Below are positions 1 to 43,883 of a DNA stretch of 43,883 nt, in pieces. The DNA comes from a virus. A model generated the notes under the pieces. That model did no database searches and was not told where the DNA came from. It saw nothing but the letters and a program-made list of their open reading frames with translations. The stretch covers positions 1 to 43,883 of IMG/VR virus record IMGVR_UViG_3300014348_000129; one strand, given 5' to 3'. The position numbers and the translations under genes are program-made. Each line of letters opens with the position of its first letter. Position 1 is the first letter of the stretch.

Positions 1-23
1 GCGCGCTCGCGGGCGCGCTGGCG
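1..23. repeat. Terminal overlap copy 1 (GCGCGCTCGCGGGCGCGCTGGCG), identical to 43861..43883
   Basis: Direct comparison of first and last 23 nt: 23/23 identical. Confidence 0.95.
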
Positions 24-1348: not shown

Positions 1349-1363
1349 TTGCCAATGGGGCAA
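1349..1363. promoter_or_regulatory. Operator OR3-like, TTGCC-AATGG-GGCAA
   Basis: Perfect half-sites. Lies just upstream of the repressor ATG (1370), positioned for autoregulation. Confidence 0.55.
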
Positions 1364-1369
1364 ACTGCC

Positions 1370-2041
1370 ATGATGGACAAGCGATACCCTAATAACATCC
1401 GCAAGCTACGCGACGAACGCGACGTCACACTAGAAACACTCTCAGAAGTGACCGGGCTGTCGACGGGCTACCTTTCCAGGCTGGAGAGCGGCGAGCGCAA
1501 CCTTTCCGTCAAGAACCTGAACCTCATTGCGGATGGGCTGAAGGTTGCGCCGCGCGAGCTTCTGATCGACGACAATCCTGCACCGCAAACGAATGTCGTC
1601 CGTGTGATGGGGCGCATAGGGGCAGGGGCCGAAATCCTCGTCGAGGGAGAAGACTGGCCGGAAGATGGCCTTTTCGAAATTGAAGCCCCCTTTCCGGTCC
1701 CCGAAGACAGCATAGCTTTTGAAGTCCAGGGCGAATCGATGTGGCCGCGCTATGACCCCGGCGACATCATCATTTGCTGGCGAACCCAGAGCCATGTCGA
1801 CGAAGTCATCGGATGGGAGGCTGCCGTGAAGACTGCCGACGGCCGGCGGTATTTGAAACGCGTACTTCGCGGCGCTACGCGCACGACCTTCGATCTGGAG
1901 AGCCACAACGCAGCCCCGATACGGGGCGTAAAGCTCGACTGGGTTGGTGCCATCCAGGCAGTGATACGTTCCGGCCAGTGGCGGAAGCTTAGCGAGGATG
2001 GTCGGCGACGGCTCTTGCCGAAAATGTCTTCCGTCGCTTGA
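1370..2041 (+). CDS. CI-type repressor (XRE HTH + S24/LexA-like autopeptidase domain)
   Basis: 223 aa from ATG 1370. N-terminal HTH LETLSEVTGLSTGYLSRLESGERN. C-terminal GESMWPRYDPGDII (Ser nucleophile context) and downstream YLKRV (Lys). Confidence 0.9.
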   Translation: MMDKRYPNNIRKLRDERDVTLETLSEVTGLSTGYLSRLESGERNLSVKNLNLIADGLKVAPRELLIDDNPAPQTNVVRVMGRIGAGAEILVEGEDWPEDGLFEIEAPFPVPEDSIAFEVQGESMWPRYDPGDIIICWRTQSHVDEVIGWEAAVKTADGRRYLKRVLRGATRTTFDLESHNAAPIRGVKLDWVGAIQAVIRSGQWRKLSEDGRRRLLPKMSSVA

Positions 2042-2066: not shown

Positions 2067-2095
2067 TTGACTTGATTTTGCCCATTTGGCAATTA
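2067..2095 (+). promoter_or_regulatory. PL-like promoter candidate (-35 TTGACT 2067..2072, 17-nt spacer, -10 CAATTA 2090..2095)
   Basis: TTGACT-tgattttgcccatttgg-CAATTA, paralogous to the PR-like module. The first downstream ORF has a GGAGG RBS at 2115..2119. Confidence 0.45.
2078..2092. promoter_or_regulatory. Operator OL1-like, TTGCC-CATTT-GGCAA
   Basis: 14/15 identical to the reverse complement of 1290..1304. Overlaps the spacer and -10 of the PL-like promoter. An extra TTGCC half-site follows at 2096..2100. Confidence 0.65.
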
Positions 2096-2125
2096 TTGCC
2101 TCCATCGCACTGATGGAGGTCTCCC

Positions 2126-2953: not shown

Positions 2954-3605
2954 CACGATCGTCGCGCCCCTGCCCGAACCGGCGATCTGGAAGCAGACCG
3001 CGCACGGCCGCGTCTTCCCGCTGACCGGCTTCGACGCGAGCGACATCGACCTTTTCGGCGACGTCGCCGAATCGCTCGCGCGCATCTGTCGCTTCGGCGG
3101 CCACATGCTCGGCAATCCCTACTCGGTGGCGCAGCATTGCGTCACCGGCGCCGACGCCGCATTCGCCGAACTCGGCGACGCCAACCTGGCCGCCTACGTG
3201 CTATTGCACGACGCCCACGAATTCATCTTCGGCGACATGACGACACCCGTCGCGCGATGGCTTTCCGTTCTCGCCGCCGAACTCGCAGGCGACAATGCCG
3301 GCCGGCTGGTCCCGGTGCTGATCGCCACGGCCAAGGAACGGCTCGACCGGGCGATCTGGAAGGCCGCAGGGCTGGCGCCTCCGGCGCGCACCTATCGCGC
3401 GCTCGTCGCCGAATACGACCTTCGCCTTCTTGCCACGGAGCAGCGCCAGTTGCTCGCGCCGTCGCGCCGCAGCTGGGGCGCGGAGGTCGACGACGCCCGC
3501 CCGATCCGGATCCGCGGATCATTGAAGGCGTGGCCGGTGGCGACGGCTGCGGAGGAATGGCGCGATCGTCTTGGCCGCTTCTGCCCCGACGCGGCGAGGA
3601 TCTGA
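2946..3605 (+). CDS. HD-domain phosphohydrolase (YfbR/5'-nucleotidase-like)
   Basis: 219 aa from ATG 2946. H...HD...D motif: SVAQHCV ... YVLLHDAHEFIFGDMTTPV. Confidence 0.7.
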   Translation: MADTIVAPLPEPAIWKQTAHGRVFPLTGFDASDIDLFGDVAESLARICRFGGHMLGNPYSVAQHCVTGADAAFAELGDANLAAYVLLHDAHEFIFGDMTTPVARWLSVLAAELAGDNAGRLVPVLIATAKERLDRAIWKAAGLAPPARTYRALVAEYDLRLLATEQRQLLAPSRRSWGAEVDDARPIRIRGSLKAWPVATAAEEWRDRLGRFCPDAARI

Positions 3606-3607
3606 CC

Positions 3608-3919
3608 ATGTCGCGCCACGTCTGCCCGACCTGCGAGACAACGTTCACCGGCGACGACTGCGACGTTCCGGAAGGCTTAGTCGACGACGTCGGCCGTCTC
3701 GCCGATCTGATTGCCGCCGGCGAGACGGCCGAAGCCTACGCGCTCTTGCGCGAGCATTTCGCCGACCTGCCGGACCTCGCGTCGCGGCGGCGCCTGCTTT
3801 CCGCTCGGCGCCTGCCCCACGCCGGTACCGCTCCCGACGCCGAGACGATCGAGGCGCGCCACCGCGCCACGATCGCGCGGCTGTTTCCGCAAGAGAACGA
3901 GAGGATCGGCTCGCGATGA
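3608..3919 (+). CDS. Hypothetical protein (103 aa) with N-terminal CPTCE...DDC
   Basis: ATG 3608 lies 2 nt after the upstream stop. ATGA overlap with the clamp gene. Confidence 0.55.
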   Translation: MSRHVCPTCETTFTGDDCDVPEGLVDDVGRLADLIAAGETAEAYALLREHFADLPDLASRRRLLSARRLPHAGTAPDAETIEARHRATIARLFPQENERIGSR

Positions 3920-5064
3920 ATGTCACCTTTTCCGTCGCCGCCTTCGTCGAGGCCGCCAAGGCCATCCGCAATGCGCGGGACACAGCCTCGAGGAGCGAGC
4001 TGCTCGATTGCGCCCTGGTGGATATCGCCGACGGCTCCATGGCGATGACCATGTCGAACCTCGACCTGGAGATCCGCGCCATCGTCGAATGTCGCACGGA
4101 AGGATCGGTCCGCGTCGCCATCCCGTCTGCGGTGCTCGATTTCTTCGCCGTTCGCGCCGGCACCGGCGAGGCGGAAGGCCGGCTGGAGTTTTCGGACGGC
4201 ATGCACAGCGTGACCGCGCGTCACGGCCGTGCCCGCATGACGATTTCGATCCTGCCGGCGGACGCCTTCCCGGTGTTCGACATGCGCCCGCCGACATGGT
4301 CCTTCGCCATGCGCGGCCATGAGTTCTGCACCATGCTGGCGACGGCGGTGAAGGCGATCCCGGCCGAGACCACGCGCCCCTATTTGTGCGGCGTGTTCCT
4401 GAATGTCCGCGACGGCGAAATTCATGCCGCGGCGACCGACGGTCATCGTATGCACGTCGCGAGCCGCAGCCTTCCGGACGGCGCCGAGAAGATGCCCGGA
4501 CGTTCGTCCGGCGTGCCCGGCGTCATCATCCCCGTTGGGGCGATCGGCGAAATCCTCAAGGTCTTTTCCGGCGATGAGAGCGAACTTTCCATCGCCGGGA
4601 CCGACGCCCGCATCGTCGTCGAAGGCGCGATGATCCGCCTGGCCTCGAAACTCGTTGACGGCACCTATCCCGACTACGCCCGGTTGCTCGTTGCCCCCGG
4701 ACCGTTCCGGGTCGGCATCGAAGCGCCGCATCTCGACCAGGCGCTGGCGAGCCTGGCCGTGGTTCCGCGTACGGACGCCAAGGGCCGGTCCATGGCGAAT
4801 CGTCCGGTCCGCTTCACGGCCGAGGCCGACGCGATCCTCATCGAGATCAGGGGCGATACCGGCGACGCGGACATTCGTGTCCCGGCCATCGTCCAGGGTA
4901 CTGGCGAGCCGTTCGCCCTTAATGCCCGACTGCTGAAGGAGGCTGTCGCCGTCGCCGGAGGCGGGCGACTGACGCTGGCTCCGTCCGAGAGCGACGCCAC
5001 CGCGCTTCGCCTCATTCCCCAGCTGGACGACCGTGCCTTCGTCATCATGCAGTTGAGGTGGTGA
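3916..5064 (+). CDS. dnaN: DNA polymerase III beta sliding clamp homologue
   Basis: 382 aa. DnaN-type motifs: ETTRPYLCGVFL, AATDGHRMH, KLVDGTYPDYARL, FALNARLLKEA, and the C-terminal FVIMQLRW. Confidence 0.88.
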   Translation: MNVTFSVAAFVEAAKAIRNARDTASRSELLDCALVDIADGSMAMTMSNLDLEIRAIVECRTEGSVRVAIPSAVLDFFAVRAGTGEAEGRLEFSDGMHSVTARHGRARMTISILPADAFPVFDMRPPTWSFAMRGHEFCTMLATAVKAIPAETTRPYLCGVFLNVRDGEIHAAATDGHRMHVASRSLPDGAEKMPGRSSGVPGVIIPVGAIGEILKVFSGDESELSIAGTDARIVVEGAMIRLASKLVDGTYPDYARLLVAPGPFRVGIEAPHLDQALASLAVVPRTDAKGRSMANRPVRFTAEADAILIEIRGDTGDADIRVPAIVQGTGEPFALNARLLKEAVAVAGGGRLTLAPSESDATALRLIPQLDDRAFVIMQLRW

Positions 5065-5219: not shown

Positions 5220-5427
5220 GCGCCTTGCCGCTTCCGAAGCCTCCCCGGCGCGTGCCATGCCGGCGTCCTGTCCGGCTTGTCGCGGCGCGGGCATCGTCTT
5301 TTCCTGCGCCCGCTGGCCGCACTGCGACTGCCCGGGTGGCACCACCCGCCCAGGCTGCCCCGGCGAAACCATGCCATGCCCGCACTGCCTCGCTGCGGCG
5401 CCCTCCCCCACAGACAGGAATTCATGA
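5209..5427 (+). CDS. Cys-rich mini-protein with a DnaJ-type CxxCxGxG zinc-finger motif
   Basis: 72 aa: MMTERL...CPACRGAGIVFSCARWPHCDCPGG...CPGETMPCPHC. The start lies inside the 3' end of the upstream ORF. ATGA overlap with ssb. Confidence 0.5.
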   Translation: MMTERLAASEASPARAMPASCPACRGAGIVFSCARWPHCDCPGGTTRPGCPGETMPCPHCLAAAPSPTDRNS

Positions 5428-5924
5428 TGGCCGGATCGATCAACAAGGTCATTCTCGTCGGCAATCTCGGCGCCGATCCGGAGATCAGGCGCAGCGCTTC
5501 GGGAGACCAGATCGCCAGTTTCCGCATGGCCACGTCCGAAAGCTGGAAGGACAGGGAGAGCGGCGAACGAAAGGAGCGCACCGAGTGGCACACCGTCGTG
5601 ATCTTCAATCCTCAGCTCGCCGAGATCGCCGAGAGGTACCTGAAAAAGGGATCGAAGGTCTACGTCGAGGGCCAGCAGCAGACGCGCAAGTGGACCGGCC
5701 AGGATGGCATCGACCGCTGGACGACGGAGACAGTTCTGAACCGCTTCCGTGGCGAACTGCAGATGCTGGACAAGCTGCCATCTAACCGTCCGCCCGAAGC
5801 CGACGGTCCAGAAAGCTACGGCACGGCCCGCAGTCGTGACGACGACCCCTATCGCCGCCAAGTCGAGGACCGCACCAACGCCGCGCGGCGTGGCCGCGAA
5901 CTCGACGACGAAATCCCGTTCTAG
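5424..5924 (+). CDS. ssb: Single-stranded DNA-binding protein
   Basis: 166 aa. OB-fold N-terminus MAGSINKVILVGNLGADPEIR...TEWHTVVIF and an acidic C-terminal tip DDEIPF. Confidence 0.95.
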   Translation: MMAGSINKVILVGNLGADPEIRRSASGDQIASFRMATSESWKDRESGERKERTEWHTVVIFNPQLAEIAERYLKKGSKVYVEGQQQTRKWTGQDGIDRWTTETVLNRFRGELQMLDKLPSNRPPEADGPESYGTARSRDDDPYRRQVEDRTNAARRGRELDDEIPF

Positions 5925-5939
5925 GCCGGAAAAGCACAG

Positions 5940-6506
5940 ATGATTTCTATCGTCGATCTCGCATTGCAGGCACGCCGCAACGCGGCGGCCGTGGTCGATC
6001 GCCATGTCAACCCGAGCCAGAAACAGGCGTCACTTGCACTCTATGACGTATTGGCGCCGTGCATGGAGCTTTGCGAGCGATGCGGGCGCGATCCAGACGA
6101 TCGCGCCGAACTGGAACGGTTGTTTGCTGAGCAACCGCGACCAGGCAACAGGCGCTACGTCGAAAAGGCCAGCGACATCTACGTTCTCGTCTGCCGCTTC
6201 GTCTTCACCGAGACCGATCGCACCAATGCCATCCGCTACGCATGCGCACTGCGCGAGGCCGGCCGAAGGCAGATCAGGTCAACCGCGCTGGCCGAATGGT
6301 TGAGGCGCAACGGGGGCGTCAATGCCCTTTATTTCAGTCGTCCGCTCGATACCCGCATCGTGGCGACGAAGACGCTGCACCTGCACGACAGGATCTCATT
6401 CTCGCGCGACGCGCCATTCACGCTGACGCTCCGCTGGCGGACGGACAACCGCTTCGACGTCCTTGCTGCCGTGGGTTCCGCTGCGGACAAACATCCGAAT
6501 TCATGA
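5940..6506 (+). CDS. Hypothetical protein (188 aa)
   Basis: Track ORF in operon context. No motif recognised. Confidence 0.55.
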   Translation: MISIVDLALQARRNAAAVVDRHVNPSQKQASLALYDVLAPCMELCERCGRDPDDRAELERLFAEQPRPGNRRYVEKASDIYVLVCRFVFTETDRTNAIRYACALREAGRRQIRSTALAEWLRRNGGVNALYFSRPLDTRIVATKTLHLHDRISFSRDAPFTLTLRWRTDNRFDVLAAVGSAADKHPNS

Positions 6507-6519
6507 AGAGGACATCACC

Positions 6520-7629
6520 ATGCCCCGCAAGCCGAAGACTGCGCCTGCCGCGACCGCCGATGCCGGGACGCCCCCGGCCCCGATCGTTGCCTACAAGGGT
6601 TTCCATGCGAACCTGACCTGCCGCGGCTTTGCCTACGCCGTCGGCGGCACCTATCGCCACGACGGCCCGGTGGTGGCTTGCGAGAGCGGATTCCACGCCT
6701 GCGAGCACCCGTTCGACGTTTTCGGCTACTACCCGCCGGCGACGAGCCGCTTTGCCGTGGTCGAGATGGCTGGGGAGACCGCGCGCGAGAGGGGCGGCGA
6801 CAGCAAGATCGCCGCGGCCGAGATCACCATCAAGGCCGAGCTTCACCTTCCCGAGCTGGTCGCCGCGGCGATCCGCTACGTCATGGATCGCGTCAAATGG
6901 ATCGACGGCACATATGCCGACGGCGAGCGCGAGGCGGTGAAGACAGGCAAGGTCAACGGCGCTGCCACCGCATCAGGTTACCAGGGCGCTGCCACCGCAT
7001 CCGGTGACTGGGGCGCTGCCACCGCATCAGGTTACCAGGGCGCTGCCACCGCATCTGGCGATGGGGGCGCTGCCACCGCATCAGGTTACCGGGGCGCTGC
7101 CACCGCATCGGGGACCTGGGGCGCTGCCACCGCATCCGGTGACTGGGGCGCTGCCACAGCGTCCGGCAACCGGGGCGCTGCCACCGCATCAGGTTACCAG
7201 GGCGCTGCCACCGCATCTGGCGATGGGGGCGCTGCCACCGCATCGGGGAGCTGTGGCGCTGCCACCGCATCTGGCGATGGGGGCGCTGCCACCGCATCTG
7301 GGACCTGGGGCGCTGCCACCGCATCGGGTAGATGGGGCGCTGCCACCGCATCGGGGAGCTGGGGCGCTGCCACCGCATCTGGCGATGGGAGCGCTGCCAC
7401 AGCATCCGGCAATCGGGGCGCTGCCACCGCATCAGGTTACCGGGGCGCTGCCACCGCATCCGGCCCCGAGGGCAAGGTGCGCGGCAAGGCCGGCTGTGCG
7501 CTCTTCCTCGTCGAGCGCGCCGCCACCGGCGAAATCCTCGCCGTCTGGGCCGGCATCGCCGGCCGCGACGGCATCGAGCCGGACACGTTCTACCGCCTGG
7601 TCGACGGCAAGCCGACGGCTGTCGCGTGA
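6520..7629 (+). CDS. Nonapeptide-repeat protein: Cys/His-rich N-terminal domain + 19 x GAATASG-XX + small C-terminal domain
   Basis: 369 aa from ATG 6520. N-terminal YKGFHANLTCRGFAYAVGGTYRHDGPVVACESGFHACEHPFDVFGYY. Repeats at 6958..7470. C-terminal ALFLVERAATGEILAVWAGIAGRDGIEPDTFYRLVDGKP. Resembles an uncharacterised phage/prophage family I recall; not verified. Confidence 0.75.
   Translation: MPRKPKTAPAATADAGTPPAPIVAYKGFHANLTCRGFAYAVGGTYRHDGPVVACESGFHACEHPFDVFGYYPPATSRFAVVEMAGETARERGGDSKIAAAEITIKAELHLPELVAAAIRYVMDRVKWIDGTYADGEREAVKTGKVNGAATASGYQGAATASGDWGAATASGYQGAATASGDGGAATASGYRGAATASGTWGAATASGDWGAATASGNRGAATASGYQGAATASGDGGAATASGSCGAATASGDGGAATASGTWGAATASGRWGAATASGSWGAATASGDGSAATASGNRGAATASGYRGAATASGPEGKVRGKAGCALFLVERAATGEILAVWAGIAGRDGIEPDTFYRLVDGKPTAVA
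6958..7470 (+). repeat. 19 tandem 27-bp units, in frame, inside CDS 6520..7629
   Basis: The first 15 nt (GGCGCTGCCACCGCA) are invariant in 17/19 units. The last 12 nt fall into a few discrete cassette types encoding S-G plus YQ, DW, DG, YR, TW, NR, SC, RW, SW or PE. Confidence 0.95.
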
Positions 7630-7631
7630 GC

Positions 7632-7871
7632 ATGAAGCCTGCCGCGAAGGTGAAGCCGTACCGGCCGCCCGACGCGGCGGAAATCGAGACGTTCCTCGAC
7701 TACGTCGCCGGATGGATGGTGCGCAACAAGGGCCGGCAGCAGCTGATGCTGCCGATCTGGCGCGCCCTCGAGCGCGAGCTGAAGAAGGCGCAGGAGGCCG
7801 AAGCCATCCTCGCCGCAGCGCACGCCCGCGTCACACGATCGACGGGTCGAACGGAAGCGCGATCTTCATGA
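7632..7871 (+). CDS. Hypothetical protein (79 aa), last gene of the PL-type operon
   Basis: ATG 7632 lies 2 nt after the upstream stop. The 3' end overlaps the integrase 3' end by 41 nt, convergently. Confidence 0.5.
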   Translation: MKPAAKVKPYRPPDAAEIETFLDYVAGWMVRNKGRQQLMLPIWRALERELKKAQEAEAILAAAHARVTRSTGRTEARSS

Positions 7872-9192
7872 GCTCGGCCTGCCGCCAGGCGAGCGAGCCG
7901 CCGGTGCCATAGTCCGGCCGGTCGATCGCGTGGCCCATCAGGATGCGACGCAGGTCGTCCCCCAGCCCCGCCACTTTGGTCCTGTCCTCGAAGGAGTGAC
8001 GCAGCGAGTAGATCTTGTGCGCCGGCGTCGGGAACAGGCCGTTCTCCTTGAAGTACTTGTTCAAGGTCGCCGAGAGATCGTTCTCGCGGTTTCGATAGCG
8101 CGGAAAGCCGCCGGCATGGCGCCGGGCAGCCGCGAGCGCCACGCCCACCAGAGGCACCCGCCGGCGCGACGACTCCGTCTTGATTTCGCGCGGGTCGTCG
8201 GGATCCTCGCGCGGCTCGATGTTCAGATGCGGTACGTCGTGATCGAGCACGATCGTCGCGCCGTCCATGTTGCAGATCTCGCTCGGCCGCGCGCCCGTCT
8301 CGACCATGATCAGCAGCACGCCGCGCGCCTCGTCGTTCAGCGTCGCCAGCCGGCCGGGCTTCAGCAGCACGTCGCGGATCCATTCGGTCGGGAATGGCGG
8401 CCGCTTCTTCTTGCGCCGGGTCGAGAAGTTGAGCCCGGCGAACGGGTTCGCCCGGTTGGTCTCCCCCATGTGCCGGAAATAGGCGTCGTAGAGCACCCGC
8501 ATGTTGCCGAGGTCGCGGTTGCCGGAGGAGAAAGACGCCGTCGGTTGCCCGTCCTTGGGCGCGATGCGTCCGAGCCAGTAGCGATAGACCTTCTTGGCGT
8601 CGTCGATGCCGATCTCGTCCATCGCCTTGTCGCCGACCAGCGCCACGAAATTGCCGACGGCGCGGCGCTTGACCTTCTTCCACTGATCGCGCTGCAGCTG
8701 GCTCTTGCCGACCAGCTCGTCGGCCACGATCTCGTCGCAGTATATTTCGAAGGCGGCCGTCACGGTCGTCTTCGGAATGGCGACCGCGCCGGTGAGCGGA
8801 TCGGCGGCGGAATCGGGCAGACGCCGGTCGATGACGAGACGCAGCCGCTCCACGAGGGCGGAGAAGGCGGCAGGATCCTCGAAGCTGGCGGCGTCGCGGA
8901 AGCTGAAGCCCATTGCCTCGACGCGGCGCACGGCCGCGTCGTAGCGCCGGCGCACCGGGTCGCCGTCGCCGCTCGCCGCGAGGGACGACCACAGCGAATC
9001 GTCGGCCTGTTCCAGCATGTCGCGCTTGCGCCGGGCGACCTTGCGGTCCTTCGTCTTCAGCGATATCCGCACATGCGGCGCGCGATCGTCGAGATGGGCG
9101 ACGGCGATCGGCACCCGCCTCTTGTAGTGGAAGTTTCCGGCCCGCTGGATCAGGTAGCGGTCGGCGTCGTCTTGCTCTCGATTGCGGCCCAT
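7831..9192 (-). CDS. int: Tyrosine recombinase / phage integrase
   Basis: About 453 aa from ATG 9192. N-terminal RYLIQRAGNFHYKRRVP arm-type domain. Catalytic-domain motifs ETGARPSE, SLRHSFEDR, LMGH and DYGTG. Confidence 0.9.
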   Translation of the reverse strand: MGRNREQDDADRYLIQRAGNFHYKRRVPIAVAHLDDRAPHVRISLKTKDRKVARRKRDMLEQADDSLWSSLAASGDGDPVRRRYDAAVRRVEAMGFSFRDAASFEDPAAFSALVERLRLVIDRRLPDSAADPLTGAVAIPKTTVTAAFEIYCDEIVADELVGKSQLQRDQWKKVKRRAVGNFVALVGDKAMDEIGIDDAKKVYRYWLGRIAPKDGQPTASFSSGNRDLGNMRVLYDAYFRHMGETNRANPFAGLNFSTRRKKKRPPFPTEWIRDVLLKPGRLATLNDEARGVLLIMVETGARPSEICNMDGATIVLDHDVPHLNIEPREDPDDPREIKTESSRRRVPLVGVALAAARRHAGGFPRYRNRENDLSATLNKYFKENGLFPTPAHKIYSLRHSFEDRTKVAGLGDDLRRILMGHAIDRPDYGTGGSLAWRQAELMKIALPFDPSIV

Positions 9193-9217
9193 CTGCGCTC
9201 CGAAACCGGTGCGCACC

Positions 9218-9250
9218 TTGCGCCCCCTATTGCGCCCCCTATCGGGCCAC
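9218..9250. repeat. attP arm-type repeat copy 1 (TTGCGCCCCCTATTGCGCCCCCTATCGGGCCAC)
   Basis: Internally a tandem 12-mer TGCGCCCCCTAT x2. 30/33 identical to 9418..9450. Confidence 0.6.
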
Positions 9251-9290
9251 ACGGCAGGCTTCGTAGCCGAAAAAATGCAGGCAAGTCAAT

Positions 9291-9694: not shown

Positions 9695-9969
9695 CGCAGC
9701 TCGCCGCTCTTCATGTCACGCAGGGTCGGCGGCGACAGGCGGATGCTCACGTCCTTCGACCCGCATTTCGAGCAACGCAGCCTGGGCACCAGGTCGACCG
9801 CCAGCCAGGAGTGATCGCGGCCGAGCCGCCCGGAGATCGCTTGGAGATCGGCCTCGACGTAGTGGCCGCAGCGCAGCCCGGCGCGGCTCGCCTCGCAGTA
9901 GATGTAGAGCCCGTGCCGGCTATCGATCAGGTCGCCAATGGTCTGGAGACTCGTCATGCCGCCCGACAT
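9691..9969 (-). CDS. Small Cys-containing protein (about 92 aa), possible zinc ribbon
   Basis: From ATG 9969: MSGGMTSLQ...[18 protein letters not shown]...[12 protein letters not shown]. Divergent from the SRAP gene across 55 bp. Confidence 0.5.
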
Positions 9970-10024
9970 AGGACAGTACGACGCCGGTTGCCAGCGCGGT
10001 TCGCGCGCGCCATCTTCCCCCACC

Positions 10025-10768
10025 ATGTGCAATCTCTACAACGTCACCACCACCCACCAGGCGATCATCGAGTGGTCGAGGGCGATGCGCGACCTCGCCG
10101 GCAACCTCGAGCCGTCGATCGACGTCTATCCCGACCGATTCGGCCCCGTCGTGCGCAACGGTCTCGATGGCGTCCGCGAGCTGGTGCGCATCCGATGGGG
10201 CCTACCGTCATCGTCGCAGGCACTGTTCCAGGCGACGGAGAAGCGCGTCGAGAAGCTGCGCGCCAAAGGCAAGGTGGTCGGCGACGAGGAATTCAGGCGG
10301 CTCCTGAAAATCGAACCCGACGGCGGCACGACCAACGTGCGCAACACCAATTCCCGACACTGGAAACGCTGGCTCGGCGTCGAAAACCGATGCATCGTCC
10401 CCGTGACCAGCTTCGCCGAGCCGGATCCGGCCAGCAAGGTAGACGGCGGGCGCACGCCCAACGCATGGTTCGCGCGCGACGAGAGCCGGCCGCTGATGGC
10501 CTTTGCCGGCATCTGGGTGCCGCAATGGGAGAGCGTGCGCAAGGTGCGCGACGGGCTTGAGACGCTCGACCTCTACGGCTTCCTGACGACGGAGCCGAAT
10601 GCGGTCGTCGCGCCGATCCACCCGAAGGCCATGCCGGCGATCCTGACGACGAGCGCCGAGATCGAGACCTGGCTCACCGCGCCCTGGGACGAGGCGAAGG
10701 CGTTGCAGCGGCCCCTTCCCGACCACCTTCTGACCGTCGTGGCGAAGCCGGAGGCGATCGCCGCGTGA
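10025..10768 (+). CDS. SOS-response-associated peptidase (SRAP/YedK-HMCES family) abasic-site-binding protein
   Basis: 247 aa starting MCNLYN (catalytic Cys2). Also [29 protein letters not shown] and [12 protein letters not shown]. Confidence 0.88.
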
Positions 10769-14109: not shown

Positions 14110-15501
14110 TTGGCCGGGGCAAAGGCAATGCGTAGCCGAAATATCTGTCAGCGGTTCAGTTTGTTTGGGATGGACACTATCGCCACCCTCTACGCGCTAC
14201 TTGCTCTGCCAATGACTCTCATGTTTGCATTGCTCACGCCGCCATTTCAGATACCGGATGAGCTAGATCACTACCTGTACGCGCGAATGCTGACAGAGGG
14301 GCAGGCGCTGCCTGTGCAGTTGCCCGGCGGCGGCGCGGGTGGCGCGGTTCGCGCTGGCGATCTTGCTCTCTTCAAGACGTTCGCAAATCTCCCCTTCCGC
14401 TACGAAGAAAAAGTATCAGCACAGGCTTTTCAGGGCGCCAATATTATTAGAGAAGGCGCCAGTATTCAAAATGACTTTTCAGGTGCCGCAATTTACCCAC
14501 CGACCGCTTATGCGGTGCCCGCTCTAGGCCTCGCCGTTGCCGATGCGATGGGTGCGTCGAGGCTCGTAGCCTTTTATGGGGGTCGCGCTGCGAATGCACT
14601 AGCGTTCGTCGGCATGGCAACAATCGCCCTCTGTGTTTTGCCGGTGAGCAAGGGGGCCTTCGCATTCGTTTTGCTTCTGCCGATGACGCTATCGCAAGCT
14701 GGCTCGTTCTCAGCGGACGCGCATGTATTTGGTGTCACGGCGATTATTTGCGCGCTGTTGGCGAGAGAAAGTCTTTGCGCGCCTCGTGCGCTAGTCCTGA
14801 CTGTCGTCGCCGCCATGATCTTGATGGTGGCGCTGACAAAGGCGCCTATGGTTGCGCTTCTACTTCCATTGGCAGCACTGTCATGGCGGCATTCAAAGGC
14901 CCTCGCCGCCGTACTCACCATCGGCGTACTCGCCGCATTCGCGGTTTGGACACTCGAATTTGTCCTTACCGAAGCGCAGGCGGCGCGCAGTGCCAGGTTG
15001 GGCAATGTGTCAGCTACCGACCAGTTAGACTTTCTGCTGTCATCCCCATTTTCCGTGTTTACCGTGGCGTGGGGGACGCTAACGGCAAACTTGACATTCT
15101 ACTACCAAAGCATGGTCGGCCGATTTGGGTGGCTCGATGCGCCGATGGCGCTTTGGTTCTACTGGCTCGCTGGTTTGTCGTTTGCGGTCACAGCGGGAGC
15201 CAGCGCACTGGAAACAAAGGCACTGCCCCATGGGCTGGCGTTTGCTCTATCGGCGATCGTCTCCGCCACTCTCACGTTCGGAGCATTGTATCTCTCATGG
15301 ACCCCGGTGGGAGCAGGAATCGTCGTTGGCGTCCAAGGACGGTACTTTATACCTGTTCTGCTGCCGGCCGTCATAGCGCTGGCTGGTCTCGCGCGGATGC
15401 CAATCAACCCACTTTTCGCGTTCACCCCGGCCGTTTTGCTATGGGGTGCAGCCGCGGTTCACGCGCCTTTGGTGCTAGTGTTCAGGTACTACCTTCGATA
15501 A
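14110..15501 (+). CDS. Polytopic membrane protein, DUF2142/GT-C-like glycosyltransferase candidate (lysogenic-conversion type)
   Basis: 463 aa, or shorter from ATG 14128 or 14170. About 12 hydrophobic helices. The N-terminal loop motif FQIPDELDHYLYA resembles the PDE..H signature I recall for DUF2142. Opposite strand to all neighbours and AT-richer than them. Confidence 0.6.
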   Translation: MAGAKAMRSRNICQRFSLFGMDTIATLYALLALPMTLMFALLTPPFQIPDELDHYLYARMLTEGQALPVQLPGGGAGGAVRAGDLALFKTFANLPFRYEEKVSAQAFQGANIIREGASIQNDFSGAAIYPPTAYAVPALGLAVADAMGASRLVAFYGGRAANALAFVGMATIALCVLPVSKGAFAFVLLLPMTLSQAGSFSADAHVFGVTAIICALLARESLCAPRALVLTVVAAMILMVALTKAPMVALLLPLAALSWRHSKALAAVLTIGVLAAFAVWTLEFVLTEAQAARSARLGNVSATDQLDFLLSSPFSVFTVAWGTLTANLTFYYQSMVGRFGWLDAPMALWFYWLAGLSFAVTAGASALETKALPHGLAFALSAIVSATLTFGALYLSWTPVGAGIVVGVQGRYFIPVLLPAVIALAGLARMPINPLFAFTPAVLLWGAAAVHAPLVLVFRYYLR

Positions 15502-15531: not shown

Positions 15532-17772
15532 TCAGGCCGTATTGGCTAGGAGTGACTGCATGACGCCCCAGTTCAATCGCGTCGATCCGGCTGTGATGTT
15601 ACCACCGCCGACGCGCCTGAGAACAAAGCGTGCCGTCGTGCTCGTCGAGTTTGTTACATCATACGTGCCGATGAGATCGGTGCCGTTGCCGCATATCCAG
15701 CCAGCACCAGCGAGAGCAACCCCTGATGGGATCGGAACGTCTATATTCTCTGTCGCAGCCCCTCCGGTCAGTGTATAATTTGCAGTACCTCCCCATATTT
15801 TCGGCTGGATGTGGTTGTTCGCATTCGTAGCCTGATTCAGTATCCGGACGGTGCACTCGCGGTATGCGTTTGCGGAACCTACGCTGACGTAGTTCGCATT
15901 CGCCGCAAGCCAGATCGCGCGCCCGGCAAAGCTGTGAAATGTGTTACCGTCTATGAGGCCACCATACTTCTCGTTGTTTACCGATGAATTGACCTGTAGC
16001 CCGGTTTCATCGCTGCTTCCGGTCGTCCCCTTGAATACATTGCCAGTAGCGGCCCACCTGCCGCCGTTGCGGGTGATGATCCCGTTGTAGTTCGCGGTGG
16101 TGCCTGATCGATAGAACAGAGCTCCGCTGCAAATCCAGTCAAATAAATTGTCTAGGTCGAGTCCGTACAAGCTCGTGGAAATATGGCCGCCTAAGATGTG
16201 CAGCCCGCTCTCGCCAATTATCGGCTTGTACTTGATGCCAGTGACTGCTCCAACGATTTCCGGATGCGTGATATACATGCCCTCGCAATAATTGCCCGCC
16301 TCAATAGCGATATCGCCGTATGTAATATCAGGGTTGTCGATCCGGAGATCGGTCGGGCTATTGCCCTGCGCATCGCCATACCAGACGATGCCGCGCGTGC
16401 CGGTGGCACCCGACGCCATCCGAATGACCGGGTGCTTCAGTTTCGCGTTGGAAACGTTGTGCAGCGAAATCCAGTCGGCAAAGCCCTGGCCGGATATTGA
16501 TGACCGCGCTCGCAACTCCAGATCGTTGAACCTCAATGGGGCGTGTGGCCTGCCCTGCTCGCAGCTGCCCTCAATGCTTATTCCCTTCCCCACATGCGTG
16601 TTGGTCGTGGTCAGTGTCATGTTCGAAATTTCAAGCCCGCTGCGCCCGCCTGCGCTGTCGAGCCACCAATTGCCTGGAGTGAATATCTCAATGCCATCTC
16701 CACCTGTATTAAGGTCGATAATGGTCACTCCGTTTCCGTTCCCCCTCCACGCAAACGCTTTGTCTCCGCTCATGCTCGCCGTGATCTTGTCGGTGATTAG
16801 ATAGCGGCCCGCCGGGAAATAGACATCGCAACTGTTTGCCGCGGAGTATGTCAGCAAATCTTGCGCAGCGTCAGTCGTGTCGACGCTATTGTTTGTCAGC
16901 CCCGCATCGAGCGCCGAAAAGGTATCGCCGAGCTTTGCCCACAGCGGACGGATCACGGTTGGCATTGCCGGAGGCACGAATCCAAGCTCCGAGTCTCCCG
17001 AAATAACGGCATCGATCGGCAGGACGACCGTGCCGACGTCCCCAATGGTAATCACCTGCTCGGCCTTGCCTTCCGCGTCGTATACGGCGGCAATCATTGC
17101 CCCAGTGCCGTCGATGGCGCGGTTTTCAAGCGCGGTGCCAGATGCGTTCCAAGCCAGAACCTTGTAAGCATCGGCTGGTGGCAGCGAGAGACCCTCCGAA
17201 AAAAGCCGGAATGTCGATCCAGAAACTTGGCCGGCGACGACTGCTCCAGCCTGAAGCGCGCCGACCGAAACATCCGACCCGCCGGCCGTCTTGATCGTCA
17301 GCACCGAGCCGCCGTTGAATGCGACCGTTACTGGCGTTGCCGTGTTCGCCTCATAGATGTTGAGCGAAATGATCGCGGCGCGATCTGCGGACGGAAGCGG
17401 AATATCCGTAGTCGCGACGATGGCGTTCGCCGTGCCGGCGCCTGCGTCGGTCGCCTTGATGTACTGCCGACCAGGCACGTCGCCCAAGCGCGTCCAGGAG
17501 CCGGTCGTCGTCGCCCCGACCTTCATGTAAAGGCCGTCATAGCCGGCGGTCGGATCTCCTATGACCAGCGCCGGGACGTTGGCGGCGGGCACTAGGTTGG
17601 CGTATAGCGCGGCACGGGTTGAGTAGACGAGGCTCGATGTGAACGCGAGGGTGGCGAGATACTCGATCTCCGTGCCCCAAACCTGCACATCGCCGTTGAC
17701 GACGTTCCTCGCACTGCCGCCGCTGTCGGTAGGCGCAAAGATATCCACCGCCGTCTTGGAAAAGATGGTCAT
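15532..17772 (-). CDS. Tailspike/tail fibre with a right-handed parallel beta-helix (depolymerase-type) domain
   Basis: 746 aa. Repeated beta-helix rungs: NMTLTTTNTHVGKGISIEG, GIVWYGDAQGNSPTDLRIDNPDI, IAIEAGNYCEGMYITHPEI, LHILGGHISTSLYGLDLDN, IDGNTFHSFAGRAIWLAANANYVSVG. AT-richer than the rest of the tail genes. Confidence 0.75.
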   Translation of the reverse strand: MTIFSKTAVDIFAPTDSGGSARNVVNGDVQVWGTEIEYLATLAFTSSLVYSTRAALYANLVPAANVPALVIGDPTAGYDGLYMKVGATTTGSWTRLGDVPGRQYIKATDAGAGTANAIVATTDIPLPSADRAAIISLNIYEANTATPVTVAFNGGSVLTIKTAGGSDVSVGALQAGAVVAGQVSGSTFRLFSEGLSLPPADAYKVLAWNASGTALENRAIDGTGAMIAAVYDAEGKAEQVITIGDVGTVVLPIDAVISGDSELGFVPPAMPTVIRPLWAKLGDTFSALDAGLTNNSVDTTDAAQDLLTYSAANSCDVYFPAGRYLITDKITASMSGDKAFAWRGNGNGVTIIDLNTGGDGIEIFTPGNWWLDSAGGRSGLEISNMTLTTTNTHVGKGISIEGSCEQGRPHAPLRFNDLELRARSSISGQGFADWISLHNVSNAKLKHPVIRMASGATGTRGIVWYGDAQGNSPTDLRIDNPDITYGDIAIEAGNYCEGMYITHPEIVGAVTGIKYKPIIGESGLHILGGHISTSLYGLDLDNLFDWICSGALFYRSGTTANYNGIITRNGGRWAATGNVFKGTTGSSDETGLQVNSSVNNEKYGGLIDGNTFHSFAGRAIWLAANANYVSVGSANAYRECTVRILNQATNANNHIQPKIWGGTANYTLTGGAATENIDVPIPSGVALAGAGWICGNGTDLIGTYDVTNSTSTTARFVLRRVGGGNITAGSTRLNWGVMQSLLANTA

Positions 17773-43071: not shown

Positions 43072-43883
43072 GCCGCTCGCTCCCGACCGCGGGCACGCAG
43101 CACGTCGTTCCAGTCCGCACCGTCCGGAGCCCATTCGGTCCGTGCGGCGAAAGCGGCCAGCCGCCGCTCTGCGCGCGTCATTGCCGCCTGCGTGGTGAAC
43201 CGGTCGCTGTCGCTGTCGCCGAGCAGGATGATCCGGCCTGCATCGGACGGGGTGACCTGGAGACAGTCGCGGTCGTCGGGATCGGGCGTCGGCCCGGCGA
43301 TGCGGGCGCGGCGCTTTCGCCCGAGACTGTCGGTGACGGTGATGGTCGGATGGTCGATCCTGTCGGCGGCGCGCCCGGCAATGTTGTCGAGATTGATGCC
43401 GCACCACAGGCCGCCCCGGTGTGCCGGGTTGATCGCCGCCCAGGACAGCACGGTCTCGTTGCCCTCGCCGATGGCGAGCTCGCCTCCGTCCGCCTCGCGC
43501 AGCACGACACGTCCGCCGCGCTGGCTGCCCTCGACCTTTTTCGCCGCCAGCATCTCGCCGGTCTCCGGATCGAAGATCTCGGCCTTGCCGCCCGGTAGCG
43601 TGGGGTCGATCCAGGTCCGGTGGACGCCGATGAAACGGCCGTCGGGACCGGTGATGGCGGCGAGCATAGCCGGTCCCGAATGGACCCGAACGAACTCCTG
43701 CCGCTCCTTCGACCAGTGCCAGTAGGCAAGCTCTTCCGTCTCCCTGAGCGTCCTGATCCGCCAGTCGGGAAACGGGATTCCGCGCACCGCCAGGTAGCGC
43801 GCCACCAGATGGCCGCCTCGCGCCGGCTCGATACTGCGGCTCTCCGTCCATATCCGGTGCGCGCGCTCGCGGGCGCGCTGGCG
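43068..43883 (-). CDS. Primase-like protein, Toprim-domain part (C-terminal part of the gene that starts at nt 344)
   Basis: Open on the minus strand to the window end and in frame with 344..1. The Toprim-like core is ELAIGEGNETVLS ... RIILLGDSDSD. Confidence 0.8.
   Translation of the reverse strand, partial: RQRARERAHRIWTESRSIEPARGGHLVARYLAVRGIPFPDWRIRTLRETEELAYWHWSKERQEFVRVHSGPAMLAAITGPDGRFIGVHRTWIDPTLPGGKAEIFDPETGEMLAAKKVEGSQRGGRVVLREADGGELAIGEGNETVLSWAAINPAHRGGLWCGINLDNIAGRAADRIDHPTITVTDSLGRKRRARIAGPTPDPDDRDCLQVTPSDAGRIILLGDSDSDRFTTQAAMTRAERRLAAFAARTEWAPDGADWNDVLRARGRERAA
43861..43883. repeat. Terminal overlap copy 2 (identical to 1..23)
   Basis: 23/23 identity with the window start. 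Confidence 0.95.

What the first reader, a model, noticed from the sequence alone, without database searches (positions are those of the whole stretch)
6520..7629. Top candidate for novelty: 19 nonapeptide repeats (GAATASG-XX) in which only a cassette-encoded residue pair varies
The 369-aa protein has three parts:
- a ~145-aa Cys/His-rich N-terminal domain (YKGF..LTCRGFAY..ACESGFHACEHPFDVFGYY);
- 19 perfectly phased 27-bp units (6958..7470);
- a ~50-aa C-terminal domain (..LFLVER..GIEPDTFYRLVDGKP).

In 17/19 units the first 15 nt (GGCGCTGCCACCGCA) are invariant. The last 12 nt occur as a small set of discrete cassettes: tcaggttaccag x3, tctggcgatggg x4, tccggtgactgg x2, tcaggttaccgg x2, and so on. 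Only residues 8-9 of each unit change, in the order YQ, DW, YQ, DG, YR, TW, DW, NR, YQ, DG, SC, DG, TW, RW, SW, DG, NR, YR, PE. Synonymous Ser/Gly codons co-vary with the residue pair, so units appear to be shuffled as whole cassettes rather than diverging by point mutation.

A constant Gly/Ala/Ser/Thr backbone with one Y/W/R/D/N/S/G-rich variable pair per 9 residues suggests a solenoid with a programmable binding face. This is conceptually like the TALE repeat-variable diresidues or antibody-paratope residue usage. I recall similar repeat proteins with the same terminal domains scattered in phages and prophages as uncharacterised DUF proteins, with no known function. This one sits at the distal end of the early PL-type operon, flanked by two orphan genes (5940..6506 and 7632..7871).
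Basis: partly seen in the sequence, partly recalled or inferred. Interest (0 to 1): 0.8.

Follow-up and report, generated by a model that had tools for sequence, protein, structure and literature searches.

The report
Phage beta-roll protein with variable pairs
An early gene of a temperate phage encodes a rod-shaped repeat protein in which seven of every nine residues are fixed and two vary. It belongs to a very widespread but unstudied phage family, and the variable pairs probably form a fast-evolving recognition surface.

Summary

The protein is a member of a catalogued but uncharacterised family: Pfam DUF7666 head (E 1e-35) and PHROG 4433 (E 1e-107). No paper mentions either one, or the motif.

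New here:
- The GAATASG-xx design is family-wide. Among 1654 units from 120 homologues, 73% are exactly GAATASG.
- Within arrays the 21-nt scaffold is homogenised by concerted evolution, while codons 8-9 stay diverse (0.60-0.66 nonsynonymous against 0.01 synonymous pairwise differences).
- Near-identical flanks carry completely reshuffled arrays.
- AlphaFold2 predicts one strand per unit (pLDDT about 90) with no PDB analogue.
- The distance between head and cap favours steps of 18 residues (114:40 over three datasets), which fits a two-units-per-turn beta-roll and argues against a disordered linker.

The gene lies in the PL-like early operon of a circular 43.9-kb phage genome. ES18 gp53 is a homologue placed directly after the N-like gene.

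Function is unknown. The best reading is a folded rod whose two edge ladders of variable pairs are a specificity surface in phage-host or phage-phage conflict. A TALE-like code remains untested.

The parts
6520..7629 (+). Complete CDS, 369 aa: DUF7666 head, nonapeptide beta-roll array and C-terminal cap. Cytoplasmic (no signal peptide or hydrophobic segment).
6583..6864 (+). DUF7666 domain (aa 22-115). Across 133 diverse representatives the following are conserved: K26 G27 F28, C34, G42, C54, G57 F58 H59 A60 C61, Y70 Y71, D94, K96 and E107. This could be a CCHC metal site or a Cys/His centre (inference).
   Evidence: Pfam PF24703 E 1.1e-35, 122 bits against a cut-off of 27; pLDDT above 95; conservation
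6865..6957 (+). Helix (aa 110-124) and a 22-aa degenerate lead-in to the array. It is predicted to be partly beta.
6958..7470 (+). 19 units of 27 bp, each encoding GAATASG plus a variable pair. One predicted beta strand (AATA) per unit, with the pair inside the SGxxG arc.
7471..7629 (+). C-terminal cap domain (aa 318-369, GKVRGKAGCALFLVER...GIEPDTFYRLVDGKP). It has four predicted strands and is conserved throughout the family.
   Evidence: pLDDT above 90; PHROG 23265 and 27197 hits on aa 279-366; family alignment
7632..7871 (+). Small ORF (79 aa) directly downstream. It is conserved in the same position in 13 related loci that share the integrase. Function unknown.
   Evidence: tblastn, 40-67% identity; also an 81-aa gene in L086
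5940..6506 (+). Upstream ORF (188 aa). No family hit and no counterpart in 83 related loci, so it is a true orphan.
1349..2041 (+). CI/LexA-like repressor (HTH_3 plus Peptidase_S24) at the head of the same-strand early-left-type gene block.
2067..2096 (+). Sigma-70-like promoter match (TTGACT-18-AATTAT) just downstream of the repressor gene, in the PL position. This is a consensus match only.
7831..9252 (-). Tyrosine integrase (DUF6538 plus Phage_integrase), convergent with the operon. It marks the end of the early-left block.

Best explanation
The gene encodes a cytoplasmic early (PL-operon) accessory protein of a temperate phage, built as head-rod-cap.

Anatomy:
- The head is the conserved DUF7666 domain.
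- The rod is a narrow two-sheet beta-roll. Each 9-residue unit gives one short strand (AATA), and two units (18 residues) make one turn.
- The small invariant residues (Gly/Ala/Thr/Ser) form the tightly packed core and the flat faces.
- The two variable residues lie in the SGxxG arcs. They form two ladders of exposed side chains along the two narrow edges, rich in Asp/Tyr/Asn/Thr/Trp at position 8 and Gln/Arg/Trp/Ser/Tyr/Gly at position 9.

Evolution:
- Intra-array recombination keeps the 21-nt scaffold homogenised and reshuffles whole units quickly.
- Selection keeps the two codons diverse.

Proposed role:
- The edge ladders are the specificity-determining binding surface.
- Head and cap must keep a fixed rotational relation, so length changes mostly by whole turns.
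- The target is most likely a variable component of phage-host or phage-phage conflict: anti-defence, exclusion or host takeover.

Status of each step:
- Shown: the anatomy, family membership, the evolutionary pattern and the genomic position.
- Predicted: the fold and the two-units-per-turn geometry.
- Inferred: the binding role and the conflict context.
For: Anatomy. DUF7666 and PHROG 4433 membership.

Family-wide scaffold with a restricted pair alphabet:
- 1654 units, 73% exactly GAATASG; position 8 is D or Y in 52%, position 9 is Q/R/W/S in 78%.
- The same design occurs with other scaffolds in about half of 148 superfamily representatives: SAATNTG, GAASATG, AQIGSSG, SQLAASG and others.

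Fold:
- AlphaFold2 gives one strand per unit, pLDDT 72-80 in the full-length model and above 90 in the array-plus-cap model, pTM 0.83.

Concerted evolution together with maintained diversity:
- The closest relative has a fixed GCC->GCT change in all 19 units but a wholly different pair order.
- Pan4 uses different synonymous codons, with 21 nt constant and 6 nt variable.
- In 81 arrays, within-array third-position diversity is 0.03-0.06 in codons 1-5 and 0.16-0.17 in codons 6-7.
- Codons 8 and 9 differ nonsynonymously in 0.66 and 0.60 of unit pairs, against 0.01 synonymously. The 81 arrays have 58 different consensus scaffolds.

Turnover: flanks 96-99% identical carry totally rearranged arrays.

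Length quantum:
- Head-to-cap distance favours one parity: 83:26 among database proteins and 21:6 among IMG/VR loci.
- 22 of 27 head-domain clusters show it.
- Among close pairs the commonest difference is 2 units (48, against 11 for 1 unit and 11 for 3).
- There is no mod-3 preference.

Early-operon context:
- Repressor -> beta-clamp -> SSB -> gene -> integrase in a circular genome.
- ES18 gp53 sits directly after the N-like gene 24 and before a putative terminator and cIII/kil.
- Other homologues lie next to RecT/exonuclease/HNH modules or between methylases and the integrase in Pan4.
- No conserved partner gene across the family.
Against: - No experiment, ligand or phenotype exists for any member.
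- Pair order shows no detectable grammar, and there is no odd/even difference in composition.
- Each lineage uses only a few 'letters' (median 6 per 15 units, sometimes only DY/YQ/NR). This could reflect recombination outrunning mutation rather than function.
- Codon 8 is about 80% NAC, so part of the alphabet is set by mutational neighbourhood.
- The parity bias was not reproduced in a small set from species-representative genomes: 10 odd against 8 even, many of them drafts.
- AlphaFold2 tends to build solenoids from any perfect repeat, and I could not inspect the coordinates. Two units per turn therefore rests on the DSSP pattern plus the length statistics.
- No hit in PADLOC.
- No solved structural analogue: best Foldseek E about 1.
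Confidence: 0.45

Rival explanations
1. Inert rod or spacer. The array only sets a distance and orientation between head and cap. Positions 8-9 are simply the two solvent-exposed arc positions. Their heterogeneity is kept for biophysical reasons: correct register in folding, solubility, avoidance of edge-to-edge aggregation, or one bulky residue per arc. It is not used for recognising a partner.
For: - Pair order is indistinguishable from random and there is no positional preference.
- Aromatic-aromatic pairs are depleted and pairs obey simple physicochemical rules: MI 0.395 bit, Y with Q/S, D/N/R with aromatic.
- Arrays are near neutral in charge.
- Length varies widely, from 5 to 39 unit equivalents.
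- The head and cap are the strongly conserved parts.
Against: - Mere tolerance would let concerted evolution homogenise these codons like the synonymous sites beside them. Instead they are 4-15 times more diverse, and almost all of that diversity is nonsynonymous.
- A register or solubility role would not need reshuffling between near-identical phages.
- The same restricted alphabet recurs on unrelated scaffolds across phyla.
Confidence: 0.25
2. Self-assembling fibre. The flat Ala/Thr/Ser faces stack, as in silk-like beta-rolls, or three chains intertwine into a triple beta-helix. This would give a filament or trimeric rod, with the variable pairs decorating its surface.
For: - Extreme conservation of small residues on what must be both faces of the strands.
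- Sub-threshold PHROG matches to tail-fibre families (E about 1e-7) and to collagen-like adhesin models far below their cut-offs.
- The full-length monomer model has lower confidence in the array, 72-80.
Against: - The gene lies in the early operon, far from the structural genes.
- There is no mod-3 length preference, whereas a 2-unit quantum is seen.
- The monomeric array-plus-cap model is confident: pLDDT above 90, pTM 0.83.
- The tail-fibre and collagen hits are compositional. Glycines fall at positions 1 and 7 of 9, not at every third residue.
Confidence: 0.12
3. TALE-like reader. Each unit, or each pair on one edge, recognises one monomer of a linear polymer (nucleic acid, peptide or glycan), so the order of pairs spells a target sequence.
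For: - It has the same evolutionary signature as TALE repeats: a homogenised repeat with a hypervariable diresidue at a fixed position and arrays rearranged by recombination.
- Small lineage alphabets of 3-6 'letters' occur in apparently information-like random order.
- The residues used (Y/W/D/N/Q/R/T/S) are those typical of base or sugar recognition (the comparison is from general knowledge).
Against: - No ligand is known.
- Arrays are not basic: mean charge is -0.08 per unit and the array pI here is 4.7.
- The pairs are split over two opposite edges. No difference between the edges and no lag-2 signal was found.
- A 4.8-A rise per turn is expected for a beta-roll (general knowledge). It has no obvious match to a nucleic-acid repeat.
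Confidence: 0.08
4. Not a protein-level feature. The repeat could be a DNA element (iterons, a recombination hotspot), a disordered low-complexity linker, a target of a diversity-generating retroelement, or an assembly artefact.
For: - 27-bp repeats with a 15-21-nt invariant core would make good protein-binding or recombination sites.
- Short-read assemblies often break inside these arrays.
Against: - The amino-acid scaffold is conserved with different synonymous codons in different lineages: 58 consensus 21-mers in 81 arrays, including Pan4 against the window.
- The reading frame and phase are always kept: 136/177 anchor distances differ from this protein's by a multiple of 9 residues.
- The fold prediction is confident.
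- There is no reverse transcriptase or template repeat in the window, and no copy of the unit outside the array.
- Complete genomes carry the same kind of array.
Confidence: 0.03

Closest known systems
DUF7666 (Pfam PF24703) / PHROG 4433 proteins, e.g. Salmonella phage ES18 gp53, Pseudanabaena phage Pan4 gp33, Ralstonia phage Hyacinthe 8G_00057, Xanthomonas phage Xp10 43L
   Same: Head domain, nonapeptide array with a variable pair, C-terminal cap, and early-operon position. This protein is a bona fide member.
   Different: Nothing essential differs. The scaffold here is GAATASG, against SAATNTG in ES18. The family has no described function or structure.
TALE repeats of Xanthomonas (repeat-variable diresidue)
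   Same: Near-identical tandem repeats kept homogeneous at DNA level, a hypervariable diresidue at a fixed position, and arrays rearranged by recombination (TALE properties from general knowledge).
   Different: TALE repeats are 33-35-aa alpha-helical hairpins that bind one base pair each. Here the units are 9 aa, beta, cytoplasmic and phage-encoded, with no sequence similarity, no known ligand and no evidence of a code.
RTX nonapeptide beta-roll (GGxGxDxUx, Pfam HemolysinCabind)
   Same: A 9-residue period, two units (18 residues) per turn, and glycine-rich arcs separating short strands (RTX geometry from general knowledge).
   Different: There is no GGxGxD calcium-binding consensus and no conserved Asp at the sixth position. 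There is no large hydrophobic core residue (Ala/Thr instead), no Pfam hit, no secretion signal and no Foldseek match to RTX structures.
Pentapeptide-repeat proteins (Qnr, MfpA) and other short-repeat beta-solenoids (bactofilin, MinC C-domain, hexapeptide LbH)
   Same: A solenoid built from very short tandem repeats. Some DUF7666 heads are fused to pentapeptide or ankyrin arrays instead.
   Different: Period and cross-section differ (5 x 4 or 6 x 3 residues per turn). Foldseek matches to MinC-C and LbH enzymes are not significant, with E 0.9-9. The arrays are not acidic DNA mimics.
T4 rIIB C-terminal domain (Pfam PF26926)
   Same: A shared C-x2-G-[FL]-H-[AV]-C ... SR..V ... D-x-K motif. Predicted RIIB structures match the head domain at Foldseek E 1.7e-3 to 3e-2. 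A head-domain HMM scores T4 rIIB at p = 1.8e-4.
   Different: Profile-profile probability is only 9-12%. The local Pfam copy does not link them. rIIB has no repeat array. The relationship is a lead, not established.

Membership tests
DUF7666 / PHROG 4433 | Match to the PF24703 profile above the gathering score | tested here: met
   E 1.1e-35, 122.4 bits against a cut-off of 27, covering aa 22-115 and profile positions 1-94 of 95
DUF7666 / PHROG 4433 | Full-length match to PHROG 4433, including array and cap | tested here: met
   E 1.2e-107. 120 of 120 listed homologues carry PF24703.
RTX beta-roll | GGxGxDxUx consensus with a Ca-binding Asp; HemolysinCabind profile match | tested here: not met
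   The unit is GAATASGxx, and no cyclic permutation of it places G-G-x-G-x-D. No PF00353 hit at E <= 1. No RTX structure among the Foldseek hits.
RTX beta-roll | 18 residues (two nonapeptides) per turn | tested here: inconclusive
   One strand per unit in DSSP. The 18-residue length quantum is 104:32 in two datasets but 10:8 in a third.
TALE | 33-35-aa helical repeats with the RVD at positions 12-13 that bind DNA | tested here: not met
   The repeat is 9 aa and predicted to be beta. DNA binding is not testable here.
TALE-like evolutionary mode (not membership) | Homogenised repeats with diversity confined to a diresidue | tested here: met
Collagen-like / tail-fibre proteins | Gly at every third residue (Gly-X-Y); score above the family cut-off | tested here: not met
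   Gly falls at positions 1 and 7 of 9. Pfam Collagen scores 21.4 bits against 27.2; SclB 53 against 325. The PDB 'fibril' hit is a GAPGSQ low-complexity match.
Pentapeptide repeat | A(D/N)LXX period-5 repeats; Pfam Pentapeptide match | tested here: not met
   No hit. The period is 9.
Diversity-generating retroelement target | A reverse transcriptase and a template repeat nearby; adenine-specific variation | tested here: not met
   No RT among the annotated ORFs. No unit copy outside the array. Variation is mainly at nt 22, 25 and 26 of the unit and involves all four bases.
Known anti-phage defence proteins (PADLOC) | Match to a PADLOC model | tested here: not met
   No hit for the protein or either neighbour
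ADP-ribosyltransferase (annotation of the Acinetobacter phage homologues) | ART fold with an H-Y-E or R-S-E triad | tested here: inconclusive
   The only hit is a non-significant Foldseek match to ARTD13 (E 1.4). H59, Y71 and E107 are conserved, but no ART profile matches.

The most novel reading that the evidence does not exclude
The DUF7666 nonapeptide arrays would be a natural, modular recognition scaffold: a minimal 9-residue beta-roll unit whose two arc residues act as interchangeable 'letters'. Phages would re-order these letters by recombination to retarget a conserved effector head (possibly related to the T4 rIIB C-domain) to different cellular or rival-phage molecules. That would make it a beta-strand counterpart of TALE or PUF codes, and a new engineerable binder class.
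Probability: 0.1. Interest if true: 0.9.

Novelty: new variant of a known kind. Interest (0 to 1): 0.62.

Why it matters
The head domain of this family defines 3748 clusters at 50% identity. They span phages and prophages of Alpha-, Beta- and Gammaproteobacteria, cyanobacteria and actinobacteria. Despite that spread, the family has no name beyond a DUF number and appears in no paper that could be searched.

Four features together are unusual for an early phage gene:
- a 9-residue scaffold nearly frozen across phyla;
- two codons kept diverse against concerted evolution;
- arrays reshuffled between near-identical phages;
- a preference for whole-turn lengths.

They point to a specificity module under conflict-type selection. 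If the variable ladders do bind targets, this is a compact, recombination-programmable binding scaffold and probably a new class of phage counter-defence or exclusion factor. If they do not, the family is still a clean natural example of a minimal Ala-core beta-roll with no solved analogue.

Tried and rejected
- PDB by sequence. A single-sequence search and a profile search returned only collagen-like low-complexity matches (8zxl 'fibril', collagens), which I rejected as compositional.
- Foldseek against PDB. The full model and the array-plus-cap model gave nothing below E about 1. MinC-C, LbH acetyltransferases and ARTD13 were not significant.
- Literature. Searches for DUF7666, PF24703, phrog_4433, the peptide motifs, and generic terms for hypervariable repeat proteins in prophages found nothing relevant.
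- PADLOC: no hit.
- Own-contig look-up: not on record.
- Conserved partner gene. The upstream ORF is not conserved anywhere. The downstream ORF is conserved only in the lineage that shares the integrase.
- Structural periodicity in the pair sequence. Lag 1-8 identity and class correlations and odd/even composition were flat, apart from weak position-9 aromatic effects at lags 1, 4 and 5.
- DGR, silent donor cassettes or a DNA-level role: rejected.
- DNA mimic or polycationic nucleic-acid binder: rejected on charge.
- rIIB homology. It remains weak after building an rIIB C-domain alignment: hhalign probability 12%.
- E. coli genomes searched with ES18 gp53 DNA: no match.
- The genome-contig scan with alignment A1 failed for lack of a conserved stretch and was repeated with A2.
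- The parity test on that independent set did not reproduce the bias: 10:8, small n.
Full report
**1.

The ORF at 6520..7629 (+) starts with ATG and encodes 369 aa. Cutting the DNA from 6958 into 27-nt pieces gives 19 in-frame units.
- The first 15 nt are GGCGCTGCCACCGCA in 17 units; units 8 and 17 differ at 2 nt each.
- The encoded units are GAATASG plus YQ DW YQ DG YR TW DW NR YQ DG SC DG TW RW SW DG NR YR PE. One scaffold change, G->S, occurs in unit 17.

Tandem Repeats Finder reports the 27-bp array and a looser 108-bp period. The 15-mer occurs 19 times against 0.58 expected by chance, and only inside the array. ORFs in the other frames and on the opposite strand of the array (6953..7633 -, 7004..7912 +) are by-products of the repeat.

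**2. Genomic setting**

The window has 66.7% G+C and its ends overlap by 23 nt, the signature of a circular assembly.

On the minus strand lie the helicase, a DNA methylase, the primase, small and large terminase, portal, protease, major head protein, tape measure, tail fibre, a pectate-lyase-like spike and a muramidase.

On the plus strand lie:
- a CI/LexA-type repressor (1349..2041);
- a promoter-like site immediately after it (2067..2096);
- unannotated ORFs;
- a beta-clamp-like gene (3571..5064);
- SSB (5277..5924);
- an orphan ORF (5940..6506);
- the repeat gene;
- a 79-aa ORF (7632..7871).

A tyrosine integrase follows on the opposite strand (7831..9252). No tRNA, reverse transcriptase or PADLOC-type defence gene was found.

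**3. Family**

The N-terminal part is Pfam DUF7666 (E 1.1e-35), and the whole protein matches PHROG 4433, 'unknown function' (E 1.2e-107). Matches to collagen, Scl adhesins and tail-fibre PHROGs lie far below their cut-offs and are compositional.

A search of 5.8 billion proteins gave more than 2756 hits. All 120 listed carry DUF7666, and they come from Mesorhizobium, Brucella/Ochrobactrum, Pelagibacterium, Burkholderia pseudomallei and the actinobacterium Subtercola.

Phage records with homologues include Pseudanabaena phage Pan4, Ralstonia phage Hyacinthe, Salmonella phages ES18 (gp53) and SEN22, and many Pseudomonas, Xanthomonas, Vibrio and Acinetobacter phages.

The head domain alone finds 3748 clusters at 50% identity. 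About half of the 148 representatives I read have period-9, -18 or -27 tails. These are built on many scaffold variants: GAATASG, GAASATG, SAATNTG, SASSATG, AQIGSSG, SQLAASG, ATNASSG, ANAATTG and GHAAATG. Each variant is followed by a variable pair after the conserved Gly, and the proteins end in the same cap domain.

No paper in the searchable library contains DUF7666, PF24703, phrog_4433 or the peptide motifs.

**4. The variable pair is a family property**

In 1654 units from 120 homologues, 73% are exactly GAATASG.
- Position 8 is mostly D (27%) or Y (25%), then T, N, W, E and R.
- Position 9 is mostly Q, R, W, S, Y or G.

At DNA level, codon 8 is NAC in about 80% of units (D, Y, N, H) and codon 9 is [CT][AG]N. 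The two positions are associated (MI 0.395 bit): Y goes with Q or S, D/N/R go with aromatics, and aromatic-aromatic pairs are depleted.

Arrays are near neutral, with a mean charge of -0.08 per unit. About 55% of units carry an aromatic residue or His. A median array uses 6 different pairs in 15 units.

**5. How the arrays evolve**

The closest relative (P0002/L086) is 84% identical with nearly identical terminal domains. It also has 19 units, but all of them carry GCT where the window has GCC, Ser-Gly is almost uniformly TCGGGC, and the pair order is unrelated. In cyanophage Pan4, 21 nt are constant, with other synonymous codons, and only 6 nt vary.

Over 81 distinct arrays:
- mean within-array diversity at third codon positions is 0.03-0.06 for codons 1-5 and 0.16-0.17 for codons 6-7;
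- unit pairs differ nonsynonymously at codons 8 and 9 in 0.66 and 0.60 of comparisons, and synonymously in 0.01;
- between arrays there are 58 different consensus scaffolds.

So the scaffold evolves in concert within an array and is conserved as protein between lineages. The two codons stay diverse, and a halo of linked synonymous diversity surrounds them. That pattern is expected from selection for heterogeneity, not from mere tolerance. A targeted mutational process cannot be excluded, but no machinery for one is present.

Loci whose flanks are 96-99% identical have completely different orders and numbers of units. Some lineages use essentially three letters, DY, YQ and NR. P0004 and P0034 differ by a single unit, DG against YQ, and YQ already occurs elsewhere in the same array. 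This points to whole-unit conversion.

**6. Fold**

AlphaFold2 with 77 homologues gives pLDDT above 95 for the head (strands plus two helices), above 90 for the cap and 72-80 for the array. There is one strand per unit.

The array-plus-cap construct with 14 same-length homologues gives pLDDT 88.9 and pTM 0.83. The repeats score above 90, with strands on (G)AATA and arcs on SGxxG.

Foldseek finds no solved analogue for either model; the best hit is MinC-C at E about 1. In BFVD it finds other DUF7666 proteins, some of them fused to pentapeptide or ankyrin arrays.

I could not read the coordinates, so I tested the geometry statistically. I measured the distance between a head anchor (R124) and a cap anchor (L330).
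- It differs from this protein's distance by a multiple of 9 residues in 136 of 177 homologues.
- Among those 136, 104 have the same parity as this protein (odd) and 32 the other.
- The split is 83:26 in database proteins and 21:6 in IMG/VR loci.
- The bias holds in 22 of 27 head-domain clusters.
- Among close relatives the commonest length difference is two units: 48 pairs, against 11 for one unit and 11 for three.
- There is no mod-3 preference.
- A third, small set from species-representative genomes, many of them drafts, gave 10:8.

I rate the 18-residue quantum as probable, not proven. If it is real, it argues for a folded roll with two units per turn and for a required rotational relation between head and cap. 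It also argues against a disordered linker and against a three-sided or triple-stranded helix.

With two units per turn, the pairs would form two ladders on opposite narrow edges. I found no compositional difference between odd and even units and no lag correlation in pair order.

**7. Context in other genomes**

- In ES18, gp53 (SAATNTG-xx units) follows the N-like gene 24 directly and precedes a putative terminator, cIII and kil in the annotated PL operon.
- In Pan4 the gene lies between DNA methylases and the integrase.
- In Hyacinthe it is near the start of the leftward operon.
- In a B. pseudomallei prophage and in Subtercola it sits beside RecT, DUF3799 exonuclease and HNH genes.
- In L086 it is followed by an 81-aa gene and the same type of integrase.
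- The 79-aa downstream ORF is conserved in 13 loci of this integrase lineage. The upstream ORF is conserved in none.

There is thus no universal partner, and the gene behaves as a single-gene early accessory function.

**8. Interpretation**

- Shown: the anatomy, family membership, the family-wide scaffold and variable-pair design, concerted evolution with maintained diversity, rapid array turnover, and early-operon location.
- Predicted: the beta-roll, two units per turn, and pairs on the edges.
- Inferred: the edge ladders are a specificity surface used in phage-host or phage-phage conflict, carried by a conserved head that may bind metal through C34/C54/H59/C61.

I put this reading at 0.45. 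The rivals are an inert spacer with biophysically constrained arcs (0.25), a self-assembling fibre or trimer (0.12), a true TALE-like code (0.08), and a non-protein feature or artefact (0.03).

**9. A side lead**

The head domain shares C-x2-G-[FL]-H-[AV]-C, SR..V and D-x-K motifs with the C-terminal domain of T4 rIIB.
- In favour: Foldseek hits to predicted RIIB structures at E 1.7e-3 to 3e-2, and a head-domain HMM score on T4 rIIB with p = 1.8e-4.
- Against: profile-profile probability is only 9-12%.

If real, it would tie the family to the classical rII/Rex exclusion conflict. It is not established.

**10. Verdict**

The finding is real and is not an ordinary low-complexity linker. The protein belongs to a catalogued but uncharacterised family, so the gene as such is not new. 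The repeat design and its evolutionary behaviour appear undescribed, and no solved structure resembles it. The TALE analogy is apt for the mode of evolution and unproven for function.

Noticed in passing
window 6583..6864; L087 1966..2904 (T4 rIIB): The DUF7666 head shares conserved motifs (CxxG[FL]H[AV]C, SR..V, DxK) with the C-terminal domain of T4 rIIB. Foldseek matched predicted RIIB structures at E 1.7e-3 to 3e-2, and an HMM of the head scored T4 rIIB at p = 1.8e-4. However, hhalign probability is only 9-12%. This is a possible link to rII/Rex exclusion.
   Followed up: partly
window 3571..5064 (+) and 5277..5924 (+): The phage carries its own DNA polymerase III beta-clamp-like gene (Pfam DNA_pol3_beta_2, E 1.9e-15) next to an SSB in the early-left operon. 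Related loci L010, L007 and L005 have it too.
   Followed up: no
window 1..23 and 43861..43883: The contig ends repeat each other over 23 nt, as in a circular assembly. The window is probably a complete, circularly permuted phage genome rather than a prophage with host flanks.
   Followed up: partly
window 14110..15501 (+) and 15532..17772 (-): A DUF2142 membrane protein (E 6e-51) is encoded opposite to a pectate-lyase-like spike gene, between the tail and lysis genes. This may be a surface-polysaccharide modification (lysogenic conversion) module paired with the receptor-binding spike.
   Followed up: no
window 9938..10768 (+): An SRAP (SOS-response-associated peptidase) gene lies just beyond the integrase, near where the attachment site would be expected.
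   Followed up: no
L112/L141 (Aminobacter sp. BE82), L113/L134 (Devosia MAG), L147/L150 (Xanthobacter), and others: In many draft genomes the contigs end inside these arrays, with the two halves of one gene on different contigs. Short-read assemblies cannot be trusted for unit number and order, and this includes the present window.
   Followed up: partly
L049 and L051 (IMGVR_UViG_2795385501_000005, 30901-43929 and 53364-66392): The same 69.9-kb viral contig holds two copies of the gene with identical flanks and identical arrays about 22 kb apart. This may be a concatemer or a tandem prophage assembly.
   Followed up: no
L059, L066, L071, L072, L076, L082: One lineage builds arrays of 18-27 units almost entirely from three pairs (DY, YQ, NR). 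Their order differs between phages whose flanks are 96-99% identical.
   Followed up: partly
window 6953..7633 (-) and 7004..7912 (+): Long ORFs in the other frame and on the opposite strand of the array (MRWQRP... and ALPPH... repeats) are by-products of the repeat and should not be called as genes.
   Followed up: yes
L003 5948..5974 (ES18): In ES18 a putative terminator is annotated right after gp53. The homologue and the N-like gene would then form the promoter-proximal, possibly immediate-early, part of PL.
   Followed up: no
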